From positions 1 to 24,062 of IMG/VR virus record IMGVR_UViG_2721755586_000001: 24,062 bases of DNA; one strand, 5' to 3'. Each line of letters starts with the position of its first letter. Position 1 is the first letter of the stretch. The stretch is from a virus. A program made the translations under genes and the position numbers. This document shows, piece after piece, positions 1 through 17,236 of this stretch. The notes under the pieces were generated by a model that saw nothing but the letters and a program-made list of their open reading frames with translations, was not told the origin of the DNA and ran no database searches.

Positions 1-321
1 ATGGAAAATGCAGAGCTTGAATTAAGAAGGATTAGAGTGATCCTCCTTTTGATTGGAATTGTTGTCTTGTTTGGATCGTGCGCTATCTCAAACATTGAAA
101 CGAGACAAGAAAGTTGGAATAACCATTCTCATGAAAATGCAGATGGAGTTTTACCATCATCTGCTGCACTAAAAAATAATCATTTTGCTGTTGTGAAAGA
201 TGATCAAGTACATGTGTACCGATTTGATGAAAAAGAAGGAGAGCTGACTCTCGTTACAACGAAATACATAGATGAATGGGACGACGAAGAATATGATGAT
301 GACCTTGATGAAGAAGAGTAA
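1..321 (+). CDS. ymzC: YmzC-like small membrane/lipoprotein
   Basis: ELRRIR + hydrophobic stretch + Cys, NHF.V motif and acidic tail resemble B. subtilis YmzC; synteny upstream of ymzA-nrdI. Confidence 0.75.
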   Translation: MENAELELRRIRVILLLIGIVVLFGSCAISNIETRQESWNNHSHENADGVLPSSAALKNNHFAVVKDDQVHVYRFDEKEGELTLVTTKYIDEWDDEEYDDDLDEEE

Positions 322-400
322 GCACGTAAATTTACAAATGAATGTGAAGTCGCTACACTATAATCATGCATCAGACATCTAGACAGAAAAGGATGAGTTC

Positions 401-613
401 ATGACACATAAAATTAAAATTAATCATTGGGAACAAACTTGTGAAGACGATTCCTGTTTCGAATATGGAACAAGCGTTTCTGTAAATGGGAAAGAATTAG
501 TGAGAGAAGCTTCAATCGTCTCTGCGCTTGAAGCGGTGCTAAAAGAATTAGGTGTTGAAGTGGAAATTACAGAAGTGTCAGAAGATTTACAGTGCGATGC
601 CTACAAAAAATAA
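401..613 (+). CDS. ymzA: YmzA-like hypothetical protein
   Basis: HW.QTCEDDSC.EYGT...VNGKEL motif; SD AAGGA upstream; synteny. Confidence 0.8.
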   Translation: MTHKIKINHWEQTCEDDSCFEYGTSVSVNGKELVREASIVSALEAVLKELGVEVEITEVSEDLQCDAYKK

Positions 614-786
614 AACAAAAAGTCTAGTCTACTAAGCGATTTTTTTTCGTGTTATGATAGATTTCGGTTTCAGTTGAATAGGGAGTAGAGCAGTCTATTT
701 TTAGATCCTGTTCTGCTCTATTTATTTGAACGTACGAGTTCGGCTATGAAGGTTCGGCCGGGTTGGTTGATTTTTTTCGTTTCGAA

Positions 787-833
787 CATCTATATGTTGT
801 GTTTTGAAAAAACATAGTATACTATATATAGTG
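787..833 (+). promoter_or_regulatory. Tandem NrdR boxes upstream of nrdI
   Basis: CATCTATATGTTGTG (787-801) and ATACTATATATAGTG (819-833) match acaCwAtATaTwGtg; starts are 32 bp apart. Confidence 0.85.
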
Positions 834-866
834 AATAACGAAATGATCAACAATACTAAAAACTAG

Positions 867-3333
<2,467 letters not shown>

Positions 3334-3350
3334 TTAAAGGAGAGTTTAAC

Positions 3351-4331
3351 GTGACAAAAATTTATGATGCAGCCAACTGGTCAAAACACGAAGACGATTT
3401 TACACAAATGTTTTACAACCAAAATGTAAAGCAGTTCTGGCTTCCAGAAGAGATTTCCTTAAACGGCGATCTCTTAACATGGAAATATTTAGGTGAAAAA
3501 GAGCGAGATACGTATATGAAGGTACTTGCTGGACTGACTTTACTTGATACAGAACAAGGAAATACAGGGATGCCGATTGTTGCTGAACATGTGGACGGCC
3601 ATCAGCGTAAAGCTGTACTCAACTTTATGGCAATGATGGAAAATGCGGTGCATGCGAAATCATACTCAAATATCTTCATGACACTCGCACCAACTGAAAC
3701 GATCAGTGAAGTGTTTGAATGGGTCAAGAAGAATAAATTCCTGCAAAAGAAAGCAGATATGATTGTCAGTTTATACCGTTCGATTCAAAAGGACGATCCT
3801 ATTTCTCTCTTTAAAGCAATGGTTGCTTCTGTTTATTTAGAGAGTTTCCTATTTTATAGTGGTTTTTACTACCCGCTTTATTTCTATGGACAAGGAAAGC
3901 TCATGCAAAGTGGTGAAATCATCAACTTAATTTTGCGTGATGAAGCGATTCATGGTGTGTACGTTGGATTATTAGCACAAGAAATTTACAACAAACAAAC
4001 ACCTGACGTGCAAAAAGAGCTGTATGATTTCTCTATTGACCTTTTAAACGAGCTTTATGAAAATGAACTTCATTACACTGAAGATATTTATGACCAAGTC
4101 AATTTATCGCATGATGTGAAAAAGTTTATTCGTTACAATGCCAATAAAGCGTTAATGAACCTTGGATTTGCCCCTTACTTTGAAGAAGAAGAGATTAACC
4201 CTATTGTATTGAATGGACTCAATACAAAAACAAAGTCGCATGACTTCTTCTCAATGAAAGGGAACGGCTACAAAAAAGCAACAGTTGAGCCGTTAAAAGA
4301 TGACGACTTCTTCTTTGGAGATGAATCATAA
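3351..4331 (+). CDS. nrdF: Class Ib ribonucleotide reductase beta subunit (GTG start 3351 after AAGGAG)
   Basis: [36 protein letters not shown] motifs. Confidence 0.98.
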
Positions 4332-4340
4332 GGAAAGCGT

Positions 4341-4374
4341 AAAAGTCAAAACGCATCACTCGTTTTGGCTTTTT
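4341..4374 (+). terminator. Intrinsic terminator after nrdF
   Basis: AAAAGTCAAAACG / CGTTTTGGCTTTT stem with a G-U pair and T-run. Confidence 0.65.
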
Positions 4375-4419
4375 GCCATTTCTAACAATGTGATAGTTAC
4401 ATACTGGAGGTTACCGAAC

Positions 4420-5037
4420 ATGGGAAAAATGGACGAAATCATTTTAGTAGCACCACGCGCACGCGTGTTTCAAAACGAAACACTTGCGTTTAATGGTGTG
4501 AACAGTGAAGAGAAAACAATCAGCACCATTATGAAAGAAATCGAAGAGCACTTCGAGCAAATGCGAAGAGGCGATGCAGAAGAAAATCCTGACTTCAAGC
4601 AGCCGATTCCTTATGTCGTGATTAAGCGTGAGGACGAAGTGTATGTATACGAAAGACTTCAAGGCGGGGGAGAGACTCGCTTACATCATAAGTTATCTCT
4701 TGGCTTTGGGGGGCATATGAATTTCATCGAAGGAAAAAACTTTGCTGAGATTCTAAAAGAAAATACAGATCGTGAGCTGGACGAAGAACTTTCTATTCAA
4801 GAAGAAGACAAACTTGAAATGAAAACCCTTGGTTTAATCAATGACGATGACAACAGTGTCGGCCGTGTGCACATCGGACTGTTATCAGCGCTTGAGCTAT
4901 CTCCGGGTGCTCATGTGGAAGTAAAAGAAACAGATCAAATCTCAGGAAAATGGATGAAAGCAGCCGATTTGAAAAAGCCTGAATACTTCGATCGTCTTGA
5001 AACATGGTCTCAATTTGTCGTTAACATCTTAGCGTAA
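4420..5037 (+). CDS. ymaB: YmaB, Nudix-like hydrolase (ATG 4420 after GGAGG)
   Basis: MGKMDE.ILVAPR, KQPIPY, SLGFGGHMN, RELDEEL; synteny after nrdF. Confidence 0.92.
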   Translation: MGKMDEIILVAPRARVFQNETLAFNGVNSEEKTISTIMKEIEEHFEQMRRGDAEENPDFKQPIPYVVIKREDEVYVYERLQGGGETRLHHKLSLGFGGHMNFIEGKNFAEILKENTDRELDEELSIQEEDKLEMKTLGLINDDDNSVGRVHIGLLSALELSPGAHVEVKETDQISGKWMKAADLKKPEYFDRLETWSQFVVNILA

Positions 5038-5047
5038 ATGAATACAC

Positions 5048-5085
5048 AACAAACCGGCTCAGCAGAAGACTTGAGCCGGTTTGTT
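5048..5085. terminator. Hairpin between convergent ymaB and cwlC (probably bidirectional terminator)
   Basis: AACAAACCGGCTCA / TGAGCCGGTTTGTT perfect 14-bp inverted repeat. Confidence 0.75.
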
Positions 5086-5104
5086 TCGTTACAACAGCTT
5101 CAGC

Positions 5105-5863
5105 TTATTGGAAAACGAATGCGTCGTGACCGGCCTGCTTCAATCTTGCGACGAGATCATCTGCATTTTGCTTTGTACGGAAAGCCCCGGCCTGCACTCG
5201 GAACATACCGCCGTCTAATACAACAAACGCGTCAAAGCCTTTGGATTTAAGTGTTGCTGCTAATTCATCTGCATTGGCTTTCACTTTGAAAGCTCCTGCC
5301 TGCACTTTATAAAGATTACTTGCTTTTTTTTTCAATTGAAAGGCTTCTTCTAGACCAGTCGCATGAGCGCGAGCGATGCCTTGAAGGAAGGTTGCGTTGC
5401 GGAGCTTATTAGCATCAGCTGCTGTATCGATGAAACCATTCTCTGTTAAAATAGCGGGCATAGAAGTTTCTCGAAGAACGTGGAAGTTCGCAGTTTTCTT
5501 GCCGCGGTTAGCAAAATCAACCGAGCGGACAATTTCATCATGAAGGGCATTGCGATACGTGGTGGTCGGTGCTGAAACGCCAGGATACACATAGCTTTCA
5601 AACCCTGTCCCCCCGCCAGCATTAATATGAATAGACACGAAATAGTCTGCCCCCCAGCTGTTTGCCGCATTCGTACGCTGGGACAAAGTGACGGATTGGT
5701 CAGTTGAACGACTTAAGCGGACGGAAACCCCATCATATTCACTAATCAAAATGTCTCTCAACAAAAGCGCGATTTGAAGTGTTATATTTTTCTCCAAAAG
5801 TCCATTAGCACTAGCTCCAGAATCTGTTCCTCCGTGGCCAGGATCAATAAAAATTTTCACCAT
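5105..5863 (-). CDS. cwlC: Sporulation N-acetylmuramoyl-L-alanine amidase (Amidase_3 + two SPOR repeats)
   Basis: IFIDPGHGG, SIHINAGGG, LTENGFID; two (Y/F)xVQAGAF...NAD.L repeats; synteny ymaB-cwlC-spoVK. Confidence 0.93.
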   Translation of the reverse strand: MVKIFIDPGHGGTDSGASANGLLEKNITLQIALLLRDILISEYDGVSVRLSRSTDQSVTLSQRTNAANSWGADYFVSIHINAGGGTGFESYVYPGVSAPTTTYRNALHDEIVRSVDFANRGKKTANFHVLRETSMPAILTENGFIDTAADANKLRNATFLQGIARAHATGLEEAFQLKKKASNLYKVQAGAFKVKANADELAATLKSKGFDAFVVLDGGMFRVQAGAFRTKQNADDLVARLKQAGHDAFVFQ

Positions 5864-5882
5864 CTATTCATCACCTCGTCTT

Positions 5883-5914
5883 TATTTTATGAGAAAATAG
5901 AAGAATTGCCTGTA
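5883..5914 (-). promoter_or_regulatory. Putative sigma-K promoter of cwlC
   Basis: Minus-strand CATAAAATA (5891-5883) fits the CATA-N3-TA -10 element; cwlC is sigma-K dependent in B. subtilis; -35 less clear. Confidence 0.45.
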
Positions 5915-6183
5915 CAAAATGCGGAAATCATTGAGACTCTTTTCTGCATCATTTGTGATTAAAAAGCTACATTTTTCTAAGAAAAAGCAAATTGTTGGTT
6001 TGTCCGCCCAAACGGGATGAATACAATGGAAATAGCACATCATTTCCTGGGAAACCGCAGAAATCCCTACAATATTCGGTATCTCGGGTCATTTTGACAG
6101 CAAACTTGGGCTTAAGCGGGCGATTGTCACGATTACAGCTCCACCCGAATAGAATAAAGAGAGAAGAGCGAGAGGTGAATACG

Positions 6184-14763: not shown

Positions 14764-16024
14764 TTACTCAAATTTACCACGTCATAAGATACTATGCGTT
14801 GATATGAAATCCTTTTATGCGTCCATTTCAGCAGTTATGATGGGTTTAGATCCTCTGAAGTGTTATCTAGCTGTTGTAGGCAACACAGAGAGGCAGGGGA
14901 GTGTGGTGTTAGCTGCAAGCCCTAAACTCAAACAAGATTTTAAGATTAAGACAGGATCGAGGCTATTCGAGATTCCCAATGATCCAAGAATCCATATAGT
15001 TAATCCTAAAATGGATACCTTTATAAACGTTTCAACTAAAATTACTCAATTGTTTTATCGTTACGTCCCAGAATGTGATGTTCACACTTATTCCATAGAC
15101 GAATCGTTTTTAAAAGTTGATGGTGTTATGAGAATGTGGAACAGTGTTGAAGAAATTGCTGAACATATCCAAGACGCCATCATGCGAGAATTTGGCTTAC
15201 CTTGTACAATTGGAATTGGCGATAATATGCTGATCAGCAAACTTGCTTTGGATTTAGAAAGCAAGAAAGCACCGAACGGCATAGTTAGATGGAGATATGA
15301 AGACATACCACAAAAACTATGGCCAGTTAGACCAATCTCTAAGATGTGGGGAATAGGTAGGCGGATGGAACAAAATTTGAATCGAATGGGCATATACACA
15401 GTTGGTGCATTAGCTAAGTATTCACTTGAAACTTTAGAAAAGAAATTCGGAGTTATGGGAAACCAAATGTTTCACCATGCTTGGGGCATAGACCTATCCG
15501 AAATAGGTGCTCCAGTGTTACAAGGGCAAGTTAGTTTCGGGAAAAGTCAGATTCTACTCAGAGATTATACGACAAAAGAAGAAATCAAAGCTGTGATTCT
15601 TGAAATATGCGAAGAGGTAGCTAAACGAACGAGAGATCACAACAAAGTAGGAAGAACGATTAGTTTAGGTATCGGATATAGCAAAGAAGAATATGGCGGT
15701 GGGTTCCACAGAAGCAAGACAATTGAAAGGCCAACCAATATCACTATGGACATCTATAACACGTGTATGGAGTTGTTTAACACGTTTTATCAGCATAAGA
15801 CGGTCAGAAGTATTTCAGTCACACTGGGGAAAATTGAAGAAGATGCTAATCAGCAGCTAACTTTATTTGATGAGAGAGGATTAGAGAAAAAAAGACAGCT
15901 TGGGTACGTTATGGATGGTATTAGAAATAAATACGGATCAAAATCGCTACTGAGGGCTGTTTCATTTACTAAGGGCGGTACTGCATTGTACAGAGCTGAT
16001 TTAACGGGCGGCCATAAAAGTTAA
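14756..16024 (+). CDS. uvrX: Y-family translesion DNA polymerase UvrX (ATG 14756)
   Basis: CVDMKSFYAS, YSIDE, MWGIG, QLTLF clamp motif, GGHKS end. Confidence 0.93.
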   Translation: MIDYSNLPRHKILCVDMKSFYASISAVMMGLDPLKCYLAVVGNTERQGSVVLAASPKLKQDFKIKTGSRLFEIPNDPRIHIVNPKMDTFINVSTKITQLFYRYVPECDVHTYSIDESFLKVDGVMRMWNSVEEIAEHIQDAIMREFGLPCTIGIGDNMLISKLALDLESKKAPNGIVRWRYEDIPQKLWPVRPISKMWGIGRRMEQNLNRMGIYTVGALAKYSLETLEKKFGVMGNQMFHHAWGIDLSEIGAPVLQGQVSFGKSQILLRDYTTKEEIKAVILEICEEVAKRTRDHNKVGRTISLGIGYSKEEYGGGFHRSKTIERPTNITMDIYNTCMELFNTFYQHKTVRSISVTLGKIEEDANQQLTLFDERGLEKKRQLGYVMDGIRNKYGSKSLLRAVSFTKGGTALYRADLTGGHKS

Positions 16025-16026
16025 TG

Positions 16027-16137
16027 TTGACATAAAATGATTTCTGATGTATTATAAAAATCTCATAAGATTTCTTCTTCTTAACGAAGAAGGGCTAGAA
16101 GGTGTTCATGGATTATTCTGTGAGCACCTTTATTTTT
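16027..16137 (+). ncRNA. Candidate sRNA 1 (~75 nt) including its promoter
   Basis: TTGACA-17-TATTAT (16027-16055); hairpin 16072-16094; terminator stem 16099-16130 with three G-U pairs + T-run; no ORF. Confidence 0.65.
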
Positions 16138-16171
16138 CACATAAAAATTGAAACCTCTAAGATGAATTCAT

Positions 16172-16333
16172 TTGATTGATGGACTGTTATAAGTTACAAT
16201 TTAATTATAATAGTGGATAGCTTCATATTTTTCACCTCCTTTGAGGTGGAACGAGCTTGGGCTACGGGAATAGCCTAGGCTAAACAAAAAAGACATTCCA
16301 ACAACTGTCCACGTTTATGGAATGTCTTTTTTT
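16172..16333 (+). ncRNA. Candidate sRNA 2 (~125 nt) including its promoter
   Basis: TTGATT-17-TACAAT (16172-16200); hairpins TTTCACCTC/GAGGTGGAA and AGCTTGGGCTA/TAGCCTAGGCT with G-U pairs; terminator AAAAAAGACATTCCA/TGGAATGTCTTTTTT. Confidence 0.65.
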
Positions 16334-16347
16334 ATTTGATAAAAACG

Positions 16348-16378
16348 AAAAAAATACCCCTACTCAAATGAGGAGGGG
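16348..16378 (-). terminator. Terminator of the minus-strand fibre module
   Basis: CCCCTACTCA / TGAGGAGGGG stem preceded by A-run on + strand. Confidence 0.7.
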
Positions 16379-16384
16379 CTTTGT

Positions 16385-17236
16385 TTATTGAACTCTAATC
16401 GAAATAAATTTTGAAATAAATGAGGAATATACTGTTGATGTTCCAGGAGTTGTTTCAAATACTCTATATACTTTATCTGCATCTTTAATTAAGTCTCCAC
16501 TAACAAGTCCATCTGTAGAACCGAACGAGAAAACTTCAGGTATCGTACCCTTTAACCCTTCACTAGCGCTTCCGTAAATAACACTGCTCATCAAAATATT
16601 TTCACCAATTTTATTCTTGCTGTTTAATCCTAAATAGGTAAGACAAGTGATTGGCGCAGTTACTGAATAATCATTTTTGATGTCAGTTACATATAATCTT
16701 CTGCCACTTCCGATGATGCTTGATGCAAATACGCAAGCACTCCATTCATGCTCATCTGCGAAAGTTACGGGCACACCTATGTAATTCAATGTAGCGGGCA
16801 AAGAAAGTGACAAGGAGTAATCAGTCAAAAAAATTATTCTGTCCTTATTACAGCTGTAATAAAGTTCGATTGGCTGATTAGGAAGAATTTCTGATTGATA
16901 AGTTATCGCTACAGCTTTCCATGTGTCACTACTTTTTGAAAATGTTCCAGTAACACCAGGAGATCCAGGCAAATATCTACCTGATAATCTCATTGAGAAA
17001 AATCGTGAATTTGTATTTGAAAATGTCGTGGATGAGCCTGCAGTAGTACTGGCAATATCCCTCATCTGAAAATAAATTTCCTTCTTTCCATCTTCACCAT
17101 TTGAAAACATCACATCATAATCAGTTGATGGACGACTAGAAATATTTTGCCATCCTGATTCAAGCATGATTTGCTTCAACTTGCTGTATAAATCTTTCTT
17201 TAAAACAGTTATTTTATTGAAAATTGAATCAGACAT
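16385..17236 (-). CDS. Hypothetical protein, paralogue 3 of 3 (putative virion/fibre-tip protein)
   Basis: 283 aa; GW.N.SS.PSTDYDVMFS.GE.G motif shared with two neighbours. Confidence 0.75.
   Translation of the reverse strand: MSDSIFNKITVLKKDLYSKLKQIMLESGWQNISSRPSTDYDVMFSNGEDGKKEIYFQMRDIASTTAGSSTTFSNTNSRFFSMRLSGRYLPGSPGVTGTFSKSSDTWKAVAITYQSEILPNQPIELYYSCNKDRIIFLTDYSLSLSLPATLNYIGVPVTFADEHEWSACVFASSIIGSGRRLYVTDIKNDYSVTAPITCLTYLGLNSKNKIGENILMSSVIYGSASEGLKGTIPEVFSFGSTDGLVSGDLIKDADKVYRVFETTPGTSTVYSSFISKFISIRVQ

What the first reader, a model, noticed from the sequence alone, without database searches (positions are those of the whole stretch)
16027..16333. Tandem pair of small RNAs, each opening with an anti-start-codon/anti-SD sequence
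Seen: two back-to-back units of sigma-A promoter, short ORF-less RNA and terminator, whose stems need G-U pairs on the + strand. Both begin with CAU, a short spacer and a pyrimidine tract: CUCAUAAGAUUUCUUCUUC and CUUCAUAUUUUUCACCUCCU. The second is the exact complement of AGGAGGUGAAAAAUAUGAAG. The opposite-strand ORFs are trivial (MRFL*, MKLSTIIIKL*) and end at the -10 elements. Inference: a cassette of trans-acting RNAs that block translation initiation of specific host, own or rival-phage mRNAs. The phr start region (AGGAGUGAAUUAAAUGAAG) is a partial in-window match, though such matches are generic.
Basis: partly seen in the sequence, partly recalled or inferred. Interest (0 to 1): 0.75.

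Follow-up and report, generated by a model that had tools for sequence, protein, structure and literature searches.

The report
Orphan type I antitoxin RNA in prophage
An SPbeta-like prophage of Bacillus safensis has kept only the antisense-RNA half of a small toxin-antitoxin gene pair whose toxin half sits intact on a B. safensis chromosome, so this RNA may be a phage tool for silencing a host or rival toxin, though it could also be a well-preserved relic.

Summary
The sequence features are real. After the uvrX stop lie two + strand units, each a promoter-like site, a short ORF-less hairpin RNA and a terminator, with stems that need G-U pairs only on the + strand.

Unit 2 is not a generic anti-SD RNA. 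Its core (16207-16281) is 72/75 identical to a Bacillus safensis FO-36b chromosomal locus. There the opposite strand carries a -10 box, a 5'UTR with an SD-sequestering hairpin, a 25-aa hydrophobic ORF and a terminator: a type I toxin-like gene. The host flank of this prophage is 99% identical to FO-36b.

In the window and five related phage or metagenome loci the toxin ORF is cut to 0-16 codons. In five of these six copies its promoter is gone too. The antisense core and a + strand promoter persist. The core is far better conserved than neutral sites (87% against 51-53%; P about 1e-9).

Best reading: an orphan type I antitoxin-like sRNA, possibly acting in trans.

Unit 1 has the same layout but no detectable homologue or target. 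Its 5' tail is deleted in one relative and the unit is absent in two. It may be mainly the uvrX terminator.

No expression data exist.

The parts
16027..16055 (+). P1, a sigma-A-like promoter (TTGACA-17-TATTAT) starting 2 nt after the uvrX stop codon
   Evidence: 11 of 12 consensus matches. 93-100% conserved in L003, L004 and L005. The -35 box lies at the same position in L070 and L071, where that promoter (TTGAAA-17-TAAAAT / TAAACT) drives unit 2 directly.
16062..16137 (+). Unit 1: a short ORF-less RNA of about 76 nt. It has a 5' tail CUCAUAAGAU, hairpin 16072-16094, and an intrinsic terminator (stem 16098-16131, U-tract 16133-16137). It is also the first terminator after uvrX.
   Evidence: Fold energy -29.9 kcal/mol on + against -18.4 on - (z = -5.5). 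Flagged by the terminator scan. Three one-sided stem changes in L003 all keep + strand pairing. Present only in L003, L004 and L005. L005 has lost the tail.
16136..16200 (+). P2 region with two promoter-like sites for unit 2: TTCACA-16-TAAGAT at 16136-16163 and TTGATT-17-TACAAT at 16172-16200
   Evidence: Each 9 of 12. The same sites are found in L004. In L003 the second -10 box improves to TATAAT. Which site is used is not known.
16207..16281 (+). Toxin-derived core of unit 2. It is antisense to the 5'UTR, SD (16233-16239 = CACCTCC), start codon (CAT 16224-16226) and first 7 codons of a type I toxin-like gene. It contains the anti-SD hairpin 16230-16251 and hairpin 16254-16281.
   Evidence: 72 of 75 identical to B. 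safensis FO-36b L059 5905-5979. All 3 differences lie in one hairpin loop. The core is conserved far above neutral sites.
16286..16336 (.). Palindromic bidirectional terminator that ends unit 2. It stands where the toxin promoter lies in L004 and L059.
   Evidence: 15-bp perfect stem. Its loop is inverted in L005. The L070 version has drifted to G-U pairs valid only on the + strand.
16194..16226 (-). Remnant of the toxin ORF (MKLSTII + IKL*). No promoter lies upstream of it on this strand.
   Evidence: The intact ORF MKLSTIILIVIALAHLIVSLITLIK is at L059 5960-6037. Other truncations are 16 aa in L003, 11 aa in L071, and a destroyed ATG in L070.
16345..16375 (-). Terminator hairpin of the convergent 283-aa gene (16385-17236). 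Context only; it marks the right-hand boundary.
   Evidence: Sequence. Appears as the first stem in the weak rli61-like alignment.

Best explanation
Unit 2 is an orphan type I antitoxin-like small RNA gene.

An ancestor of these SPbeta-like phages of the Bacillus pumilus group carried a type I toxin-antitoxin cassette downstream of uvrX. The toxin was a 25-aa membrane-type peptide encoded on the - strand. Its ORF, and in most copies its promoter, have since been deleted. The roughly 75 nt antisense to the toxin's 5'UTR, SD and start codon were kept, together with a + strand promoter and terminator.

The RNA, about 130-165 nt long, would pair over about 75 nt with toxin mRNA made elsewhere: from the B. 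safensis chromosome or from another mobile element. This would occlude the ribosome-binding site and probably create an RNase III substrate. The toxin would be neutralised in trans, serving as counter-defence, anti-addiction or protection during SOS induction.

Shown: the homology, the truncations, the conservation, and the + strand promoter, terminator and structure signals.
Inferred: transcription, pairing in vivo, toxicity of the peptide, and any benefit to the phage.

Unit 1 is a lineage-restricted insertion of about 110-140 nt with the same layout (tail, pyrimidine-arm hairpin, terminator). It certainly supplies the first terminator after uvrX. Whether it is also a regulatory RNA is open.
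For: 1. The core 16207-16281 is 96% identical to FO-36b locus L059. There the opposite strand has TATAAT, a 5'UTR hairpin that sequesters GGAGGTG, a 25-aa hydrophobic ORF and its own terminator.
2. The host flank (window 1-6000) is 99% identical to FO-36b, so the toxin occurs in the phage's host species.
3. The native locus and L004 have an intrinsic terminator on the antisense strand (12 bp plus a T-run) exactly at the toxin's predicted transcription start. This implies a native cis-antisense RNA that ends there.
4. There are at least three different truncation patterns: window/L004/L005 with 10 codons and L003 with 16 (same break point), L071 with 11, and L070 with no ATG. There are also two promoter arrangements. 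All retain the same core.
5. Core identity between window and L070 is 59/68. Four-fold degenerate sites in uvrX are 0.507 identical and those in the downstream gene 0.525 (P = 4e-10 and 2e-9).
6. A + strand promoter-like site precedes the core in every copy scanned.
7. Stems carry G-U pairs specific to the + strand, and the + strand folds are more stable.
8. The four provirus records searched whole (G000, G092, G093, G094) have no intact toxin.
9. The slot hosts such cassettes: L004 carries a second intact toxin-like cassette here, and the same cassette occurs in an ICE-like context.
Against: - There are no expression data of any kind.
- Only one intact toxin copy was found: FO-36b, out of 91 family-level species genomes, with none in the viral or plasmid collections. 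The peptide matches no Pfam or NCBIfam family. Its toxicity is unproven.
- Losing the toxin first is the expected neutral route of TA decay, so an orphan antitoxin can be a relic.
- The high core identity could reflect mosaic recombination. Against closer relatives the excess over the neighbouring gene is modest: 0.94 against 0.85 for window and L003 (P = 0.016).
- There are no double-sided compensatory changes.
- G022 carries the orphan but no detectable toxin. FO-36b carries the toxin but no orphan.
- Whether this lysogen has the toxin is unknown.
- The native antitoxin promoter is not identified.
Confidence: 0.55

Rival explanations
1. Inert relic plus ordinary terminators. The region is the decayed stump of a toxin-antitoxin cassette lying between convergent transcription units (yolD-uvrX on +, the fibre-like genes on -). 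The hairpins matter only as terminators, the promoter-like sites are AT-rich chance matches, and no regulatory RNA acts.
For: - Promoter and terminator counts are not above shuffles.
- The toxin is gone, and toxin-first loss is the neutral decay path.
- Unit 1's terminator is the first one after uvrX.
- In L070 and L071 the core directly follows uvrX and could be just its 3'UTR and terminator.
- No compensatory double changes.
- Rfam finds nothing.
Against: - The non-terminator part (ATATTTTTCACCTCCTTTGAGGTGGAA) is invariant in all 7 copies, including its unpaired bases.
- Against L070 the core is 87% identical while flanking neutral sites are 51-53%.
- At least three truncation patterns all spare the same 68-75 nt.
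- P1 matches 11 of 12 and is positionally conserved in three arrangements.
Confidence: 0.3
2. One reading: a cassette of two dedicated trans-acting anti-SD/anti-start RNAs that repress various phage, host or rival-phage mRNAs, for example phr or aimP.
For: - Both units start with CAU, a spacer and a pyrimidine tract.
- The aimP-like gene at provirus position 74219 has a start region matching 18 of 20 to the unit 2 complement.
- The phr start region is a looser match.
Against: - Unit 2's anti-SD is buried in a 9-bp stem.
- The best in-provirus duplexes are within the range of shuffled queries: unit 1 -25.3 against a shuffle mean of -24.5; unit 2 -38.5 against a shuffle minimum of -39.7.
- Unit 1's tract is not an anti-SD.
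- Unit 1's tail is deleted in L005. Its complement has no match with up to 3 mismatches in FO-36b.
- The CAU of unit 2 is lost in L070.
- The two units are not homologous.
Confidence: 0.1
3. The - strand is the functional one: the mini-ORF MKLSTIIIKL, or a truncated toxin mRNA, is the product.
For: A perfect SD (GGAGGTG) lies 6 nt from the ATG. L004 still has the toxin promoter.
Against: - No - strand promoter lies upstream in the window, L003, L005, L070 or L071; a terminator sits there instead.
- ORF length varies (10, 11 or 16 codons) and the ATG is destroyed in L070.
- Stems carry A-C mismatches on the - strand.
Confidence: 0.03

Closest known systems
Bacillus subtilis prophage-borne type I toxin-antitoxin systems (bsrG/SR4 and yonT/SR6 on SPbeta; txpA/RatA on skin)
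   Same: Small hydrophobic toxin with its SD held in a 5'UTR hairpin. Antisense RNA antitoxin with its own sigma-A promoter and intrinsic terminator. Location on SPbeta-type prophages. RNase III-dependent silencing is documented for these systems (PMC3531473, PMC5848175).
   Different: Those antitoxins overlap the 3' end of the toxin mRNA, and both genes are present. Here the RNA covers the 5'UTR, SD and start codon, and the toxin gene is missing. There is no sequence match: Rfam, Pfam and NCBIfam are all negative.
5'-overlapping or fully overlapping type I systems (hok/sok, ibs/sib, zorO/orzO)
   Same: The antisense RNA is complementary to the toxin's translation initiation region or 5'UTR. 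The toxins are very short hydrophobic peptides: Ibs is 18-19 aa, and the peptide here is 25 aa.
   Different: Those are proteobacterial families with no detectable homology to this one. They are cis-encoded pairs, not orphans on a phage.
PhiTE pseudo-ToxI, and other phage-borne antitoxins (T4 Dmd, orphan DarG-like enzymes)
   Same: The phage carries only the antitoxin half of a host toxin-antitoxin system and uses it to escape the toxin (reviewed in PMC12548467).
   Different: Pseudo-ToxI is a type III RNA that binds the toxin protein, and the others are proteins. Here the proposed action is antisense pairing with the toxin mRNA. My paper searches found no phage-borne type I example.
Chromosomal 'anti-addiction' antitoxins
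   Same: An antitoxin kept without, or apart from, its cognate toxin neutralises a toxin encoded on another replicon (PMC12548467).
   Different: The described cases are protein (type II) antitoxins on chromosomes acting against plasmids. Here an RNA on a prophage would act against a chromosomal or mobile-element toxin.

Membership tests
Type I antitoxin RNA (general class) | Extended antisense complementarity to a toxin mRNA | tested here: met
   72 of 75 nt are complementary to the 5'UTR, SD, ATG and first 7 codons of the FO-36b toxin-like gene.
Type I antitoxin RNA (general class) | Cognate small hydrophobic toxin gene encoded at the same locus | tested here: not met
   In the window the ORF is cut to 10 codons and has no promoter. 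No intact copy exists in the 135-kb provirus or in three related proviruses. Hence 'orphan'.
Type I antitoxin RNA (general class) | Own promoter and terminator; non-coding | tested here: met
   Promoter-like sites precede the core in every arrangement. Terminator hairpins are present. The only + strand ORF candidate, a 23-aa frame in unit 1, loses its ATG in L003. Consensus-level evidence only.
Type I antitoxin RNA (general class) | The RNA is expressed and neutralises the toxin; the toxin is toxic | not testable with these tools
   No transcriptome or functional data are available.
Known Bacillus type I families (TxpA/BsrG/BsrE/BsrH, YonT, YhzE) and curated sRNA families | Sequence or profile match of the toxin or the RNA | tested here: not met
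   No Rfam family reaches its gathering score, and the best E-value is 0.04. Pfam and NCBIfam give no significant hit for either the 25-aa or the 34-aa peptide.
Phage-encoded antitoxin mimic (counter-defence) | The cognate toxin is present in the phage's host and limits the phage; the phage RNA relieves this | tested here: inconclusive
   The toxin occurs in the host species representative FO-36b. It was found in only 1 of 49 genus genomes. The lysogen's own genome is not available, and a defence role is untested.
SD-targeting trans sRNAs (RoxS/RsaE-like logic) | Accessible C-rich or anti-SD motif in loops or single strands, with multiple mRNA targets | tested here: not met
   The anti-SD lies in a 9-bp stem. 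In-provirus target scores are no better than shuffles. No Rfam hit.

The most novel reading that the evidence does not exclude
SPbeta-like phages of the Bacillus pumilus group deliberately keep a stand-alone antisense RNA against the translation start of a host or mobile-element type I toxin. It is expressed from its own promoter and, in some phages, as the 3' end of the SOS-induced yolD-uvrX transcript. Its role would be to disarm toxin-based abortive infection or addiction. That would be the first base-pairing (type I) antitoxin used as phage counter-defence. The variation in the hairpin loop (CGGGAA / CTGGAA / GTGCAA) would mark specificity variants, and unit 1 would be a second such RNA against a toxin not yet sampled.
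Probability: 0.3. Interest if true: 0.75.

Novelty: new variant of a known kind. Interest (0 to 1): 0.55.

Why it matters
Type I toxin-antitoxin pairs are common on prophages, but their role in phage-host conflict is poorly defined. Phage antitoxin mimics are known only for protein-binding RNAs (type III) and for protein antitoxins.

A conserved, toxin-less antisense RNA on a phage, with its exact target on the host species' chromosome, would give a directly testable case of RNA-antisense counter-defence or anti-addiction. It would also point to a new small-toxin family that no profile library currently recognises.

If it turns out to be a relic, it still shows how TA cassettes decay toxin-first in a hot spot downstream of uvrX. 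It also warns that 'anti-SD sRNAs' read from raw sequence can be the mirror image of a lost gene's ribosome-binding site.

Tried and rejected
Database and homology searches that gave nothing:
- Rfam at E-value and gathering thresholds: only sub-threshold terminator-like hits.
- blastn against the phage and plasmid collections: no match.
- Pfam and NCBIfam for both toxin peptides: nothing significant.
- An exact-pattern scan of genome contigs returned mostly unrelated sequences containing the CACCTCC...GAGGTG motif. Only the B. safensis hit was relevant.
- Unit 1 homologues in 49 genus and 91 family genomes: none. The 24-nt hit in FO-36b lies in a coding region in the same sense, so it is not a target.
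- Intact toxin in IMG/VR by exact pattern: none.
- The toxin peptide is too short for the large protein searches and is not in the 15-billion-protein collection.
- tblastn of both toxins against the provirus: only noise.

Target searches for the RNAs:
- The complement of the unit 1 tail in FO-36b and G022 with up to 3 mismatches: nothing meaningful.
- A duplex scan of 638 SD-bearing start regions in the provirus scored no better than shuffled queries.

Other readings considered and rejected:
- Unit 1 and unit 2 are not homologous to each other (z = 1.45).
- The + strand 23-aa ORF inside the unit 1 terminator is rejected because its ATG becomes ACG in L003.
- The syntenic site in four sister species has no toxin there.
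- The genome behind L091 is not held, so co-occurrence in that strain could not be checked.
- SPbeta itself has sunI-sunA after uvrX and nothing homologous to these units.

Left as inference: unit 1 as an insertion bounded by the 8-bp repeat ACATAAAA (16030-16037 and 16139-16146). This is compatible with the sequences, but MAFFT places the gap differently.

Full report
CONTEXT

The window is the left end of a 135-kb provirus record. It carries an LXG toxin with YezG-like immunity, YolD and a Y-family polymerase UvrX. UvrX is 74-76% identical to that of SPbeta and phi3T.

Window 1-6000 is host DNA and is 99% identical to the species-representative genome G001, Bacillus safensis FO-36b. So this is an SPbeta-like prophage of B. 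safensis.

The finding lies between the uvrX stop (16022-16024) and the convergent 283-aa gene at 16385-17236. In SPbeta this slot holds sunI-sunA, and nothing there is homologous to the two units.

THE OBSERVATION

- P1 (TTGACA-17-TATTAT, 16027-16055) is the best promoter-like site in the region, at 11 of 12.
- Unit 1 (about 16062-16137) folds into a 9-bp hairpin and a 15-bp terminator stem followed by a U-tract.
- Unit 2 (about 16207-16335) folds into four hairpins and ends in a perfect 15-bp palindromic terminator.
- Both units fold better on the + strand: -29.9 against -18.4 kcal/mol for unit 1 and -48.3 against -42.3 for unit 2. The + strand z-scores are -5.5 and -6.9.
- Eleven of the 67 + strand pairs are G-U and would be A-C mismatches on the other strand.

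The raw counts of promoter-like and terminator-like sites are not above shuffles. Significance therefore has to come from comparison with related sequences.

WHAT UNIT 2 IS

Exact-pattern and BLAST searches found the intergenic region in five other places:
- three close proviruses, L003, L004 and L005;
- a prophage in another Bacillus species, G022 / L070;
- a metagenome contig, L071.

The decisive hit is a chromosomal locus of B. safensis FO-36b (L059). Seventy-five nucleotides (window 16207-16281) are 96% identical to it.

In FO-36b the opposite strand reads as a complete small gene:
- a TATAAT box;
- a 5'UTR with two hairpins, the second pairing CCACCTC with GGAGGTG and so sequestering the SD;
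- 6 nt, then an ATG;
- a 25-aa hydrophobic ORF, MKLSTIILIVIALAHLIVSLITLIK;
- its own terminator.

This is the anatomy of a type I toxin gene. The peptide matches no Pfam or NCBIfam family.

On the antisense strand, a 12-bp hairpin followed by T6 sits exactly at the toxin's predicted transcription start in FO-36b and in L004. This is best explained by a native cis-antisense RNA that covers the toxin's initiation region and terminates there.

The window's MKLSTIIIKL* is therefore the first seven codons of this toxin followed by unrelated sequence. In the window the toxin promoter has been replaced by the palindromic terminator.

PATTERN ACROSS COPIES

The toxin is broken differently in different copies:
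- 10 codons in the window, L004 and L005;
- 16 codons in L003, through a stop-codon change;
- 11 codons in L071, where homology to the toxin runs three codons further;
- no ATG at all in L070.

L004 still has the toxin promoter and the native antisense terminator. The others have the palindromic terminator.

In L070 and L071 the core follows directly after the uvrX stop. It lies behind a promoter (TTGAAA-17-TAAAAT or TAAACT) whose -35 box sits where P1's does in the window.

None of the four provirus records searched whole contains an intact toxin.

The 68-nt core is 87% identical between the window and L070. Four-fold degenerate sites are 51% identical in uvrX and 53% in the downstream gene (binomial P = 4e-10 and 2e-9). 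The stretch ATATTTTTCACCTCCTTTGAGGTGGAA is invariant in all seven copies.

Within the intergenic region, the spacer between the two units is only 56% identical between the window and L003. The core is 94% identical over the same comparison.

All three differences between the window and FO-36b lie in the loop of the second hairpin.

MOST LIKELY MECHANISM

The + strand RNA is an antitoxin homologue that has lost its toxin. If toxin mRNA is present, from the host chromosome or from another element, about 75 nt of near-perfect complementarity across the SD and start codon should block initiation. By analogy with B. subtilis type I systems, the duplex should also be cut by RNase III (PMC3531473).

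Phage-borne antitoxin mimics are established for ToxIN (pseudo-ToxI of PhiTE), for RnlA/LsoA (Dmd) and for DarTG (reviewed in PMC12548467). My literature searches found no type I example.

The homology, truncation pattern, conservation and strand signals are shown. Transcription, pairing in vivo, toxicity of the peptide and any selective benefit are inferred.

CAVEATS

- Only one intact toxin copy was found: 1 of 49 genus genomes and 1 of 91 family genomes, with none in the viral contigs or plasmids.
- At the syntenic site in sister species the toxin locus is absent, so it is an accessory islet.
- G022 has the orphan but no toxin. FO-36b has the toxin but no orphan.
- Losing the toxin first is the expected route of neutral TA decay.
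- Mosaic exchange could inflate core identity. Against L003 the excess over the neighbouring gene is only 0.94 against 0.85 (P = 0.016).
- No double-sided compensatory substitutions exist. There are five one-sided changes, all through G-U and all keeping + strand pairing.

UNIT 1

It occurs only in the window, L003, L004 and L005. Relative to L070 and L071 it behaves as a 110-140-nt insertion between the shared promoter and unit 2. A 109-bp segment is bounded by the 8-bp repeat ACATAAAA, which I offer only as an inference.

Its layout mirrors two other RNAs: the native antitoxin, and the antisense side of a second toxin cassette in L004 (CAT, spacer, pyrimidine-arm hairpin, terminator hairpin, U-run). 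But:
- it has no significant sequence similarity to unit 2 (z = 1.45);
- it has no homologue in 91 genomes;
- no complementary start region was found in the provirus or in FO-36b;
- its 5' tail is 75% conserved in L003 and deleted in L005;
- its 'anti-SD' is UUCUUCUUC, which is not complementary to an SD.

P1 and the first hairpin are well conserved (93-100% and 96%). The terminator stem changes in L003 keep + strand pairing. So a + strand RNA structure is selected. At the least it is the uvrX terminator. Possibly it is a second, orphaned antisense RNA whose partner has not been sampled.

The generic 'anti-SD' model is not supported.
- The anti-SD of unit 2 is buried in a 9-bp stem.
- The phr site is a loose match.
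- The best in-provirus match, an aimP-like gene at 74219 with 18 of 20 matching, is what a consensus SD plus an MK start would give by chance. Duplex scores fall within the range of shuffled queries.
- The - strand mini-ORFs are not functional products. They have no upstream promoter, they vary in length, and the ATG is lost in L070.

OVERALL

Unit 2 derives from a type I toxin-antitoxin locus and is antisense to the toxin's start region: about 0.85 confidence. Unit 2 is a functional trans-acting antitoxin: about 0.45. Combined, I give the best explanation 0.55.

It is a new variant of a known kind and is readily testable.

Noticed in passing
L004 1530-2165 (also L091 2740-3180): A 640-bp insertion next to unit 2 carries a second type I toxin-like cassette. 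It has a 34-aa ORF MLLALDVTANCFSIIASFMTIRFLLKQQKASLKD (L004 1804-1908, - strand) with its SD in a hairpin, its own terminator, a convergent promoter (TTGCAA-18-TATAAT, with TG before the -10 box) and an antisense hairpin plus U-run at its transcription start. A nearly identical cassette sits in an ICE-like context (TcpE, VirB4-like AAA_10, NlpC/P60) in NCBI assembly GCA_048159725.1.
   Followed up: partly
L005 1513-1559, compared with window 16286-16332: The loop of the palindromic terminator is inverted in L005 relative to the window, while the arms are identical. This looks like a flip by recombination between the perfect inverted repeats. It is consistent with a terminator that works in either orientation.
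   Followed up: no
L059 6224-6238; L004 about 1685-1700 and 1722-1738; L091 3186-3200 and 3226-3240: A motif AATTATTTGT(T/C)GCGC, with a looser variant in the second L004 copy, recurs downstream of the toxin genes in three loci. It is a tandem direct repeat in L091 and L004. It could be part of the native antitoxin or its control region. Unexplained.
   Followed up: no
L059 6300-6404 (+): A second small hydrophobic ORF, MENEQKYKRRCVLIAILLFNLLCCVLWIIFILML (34 aa), lies behind a TATAAT box just downstream of the FO-36b toxin. This suggests a cluster of small membrane-peptide genes in that islet.
   Followed up: no
Provirus G000 74219-74344 (outside the window): An arbitrium AimP-like 41-aa pro-peptide ends in SASRGA. 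Its start region AGGAGGTGAGATATATGAAG matches 18 of 20 to the sequence complementary to unit 2. This is probably a generic SD plus MK start.
   Followed up: partly
window 16264-16269; matching loop in L003, L004, L005, L059, L070 and L071: Variation in the core concentrates in the loop of the second hairpin: CGGGAA in the window, CTGGAA in L005, and GTGCAA in the other phage copies and the native locus. In antisense-RNA systems such loops often set pairing specificity.
   Followed up: no
window 16030-16037 and 16139-16146: An 8-bp direct repeat ACATAAAA brackets the 109-bp body of unit 1. Deleting the segment between the repeats gives a sequence resembling the single-unit arrangement of L070 and L071.
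   Followed up: partly
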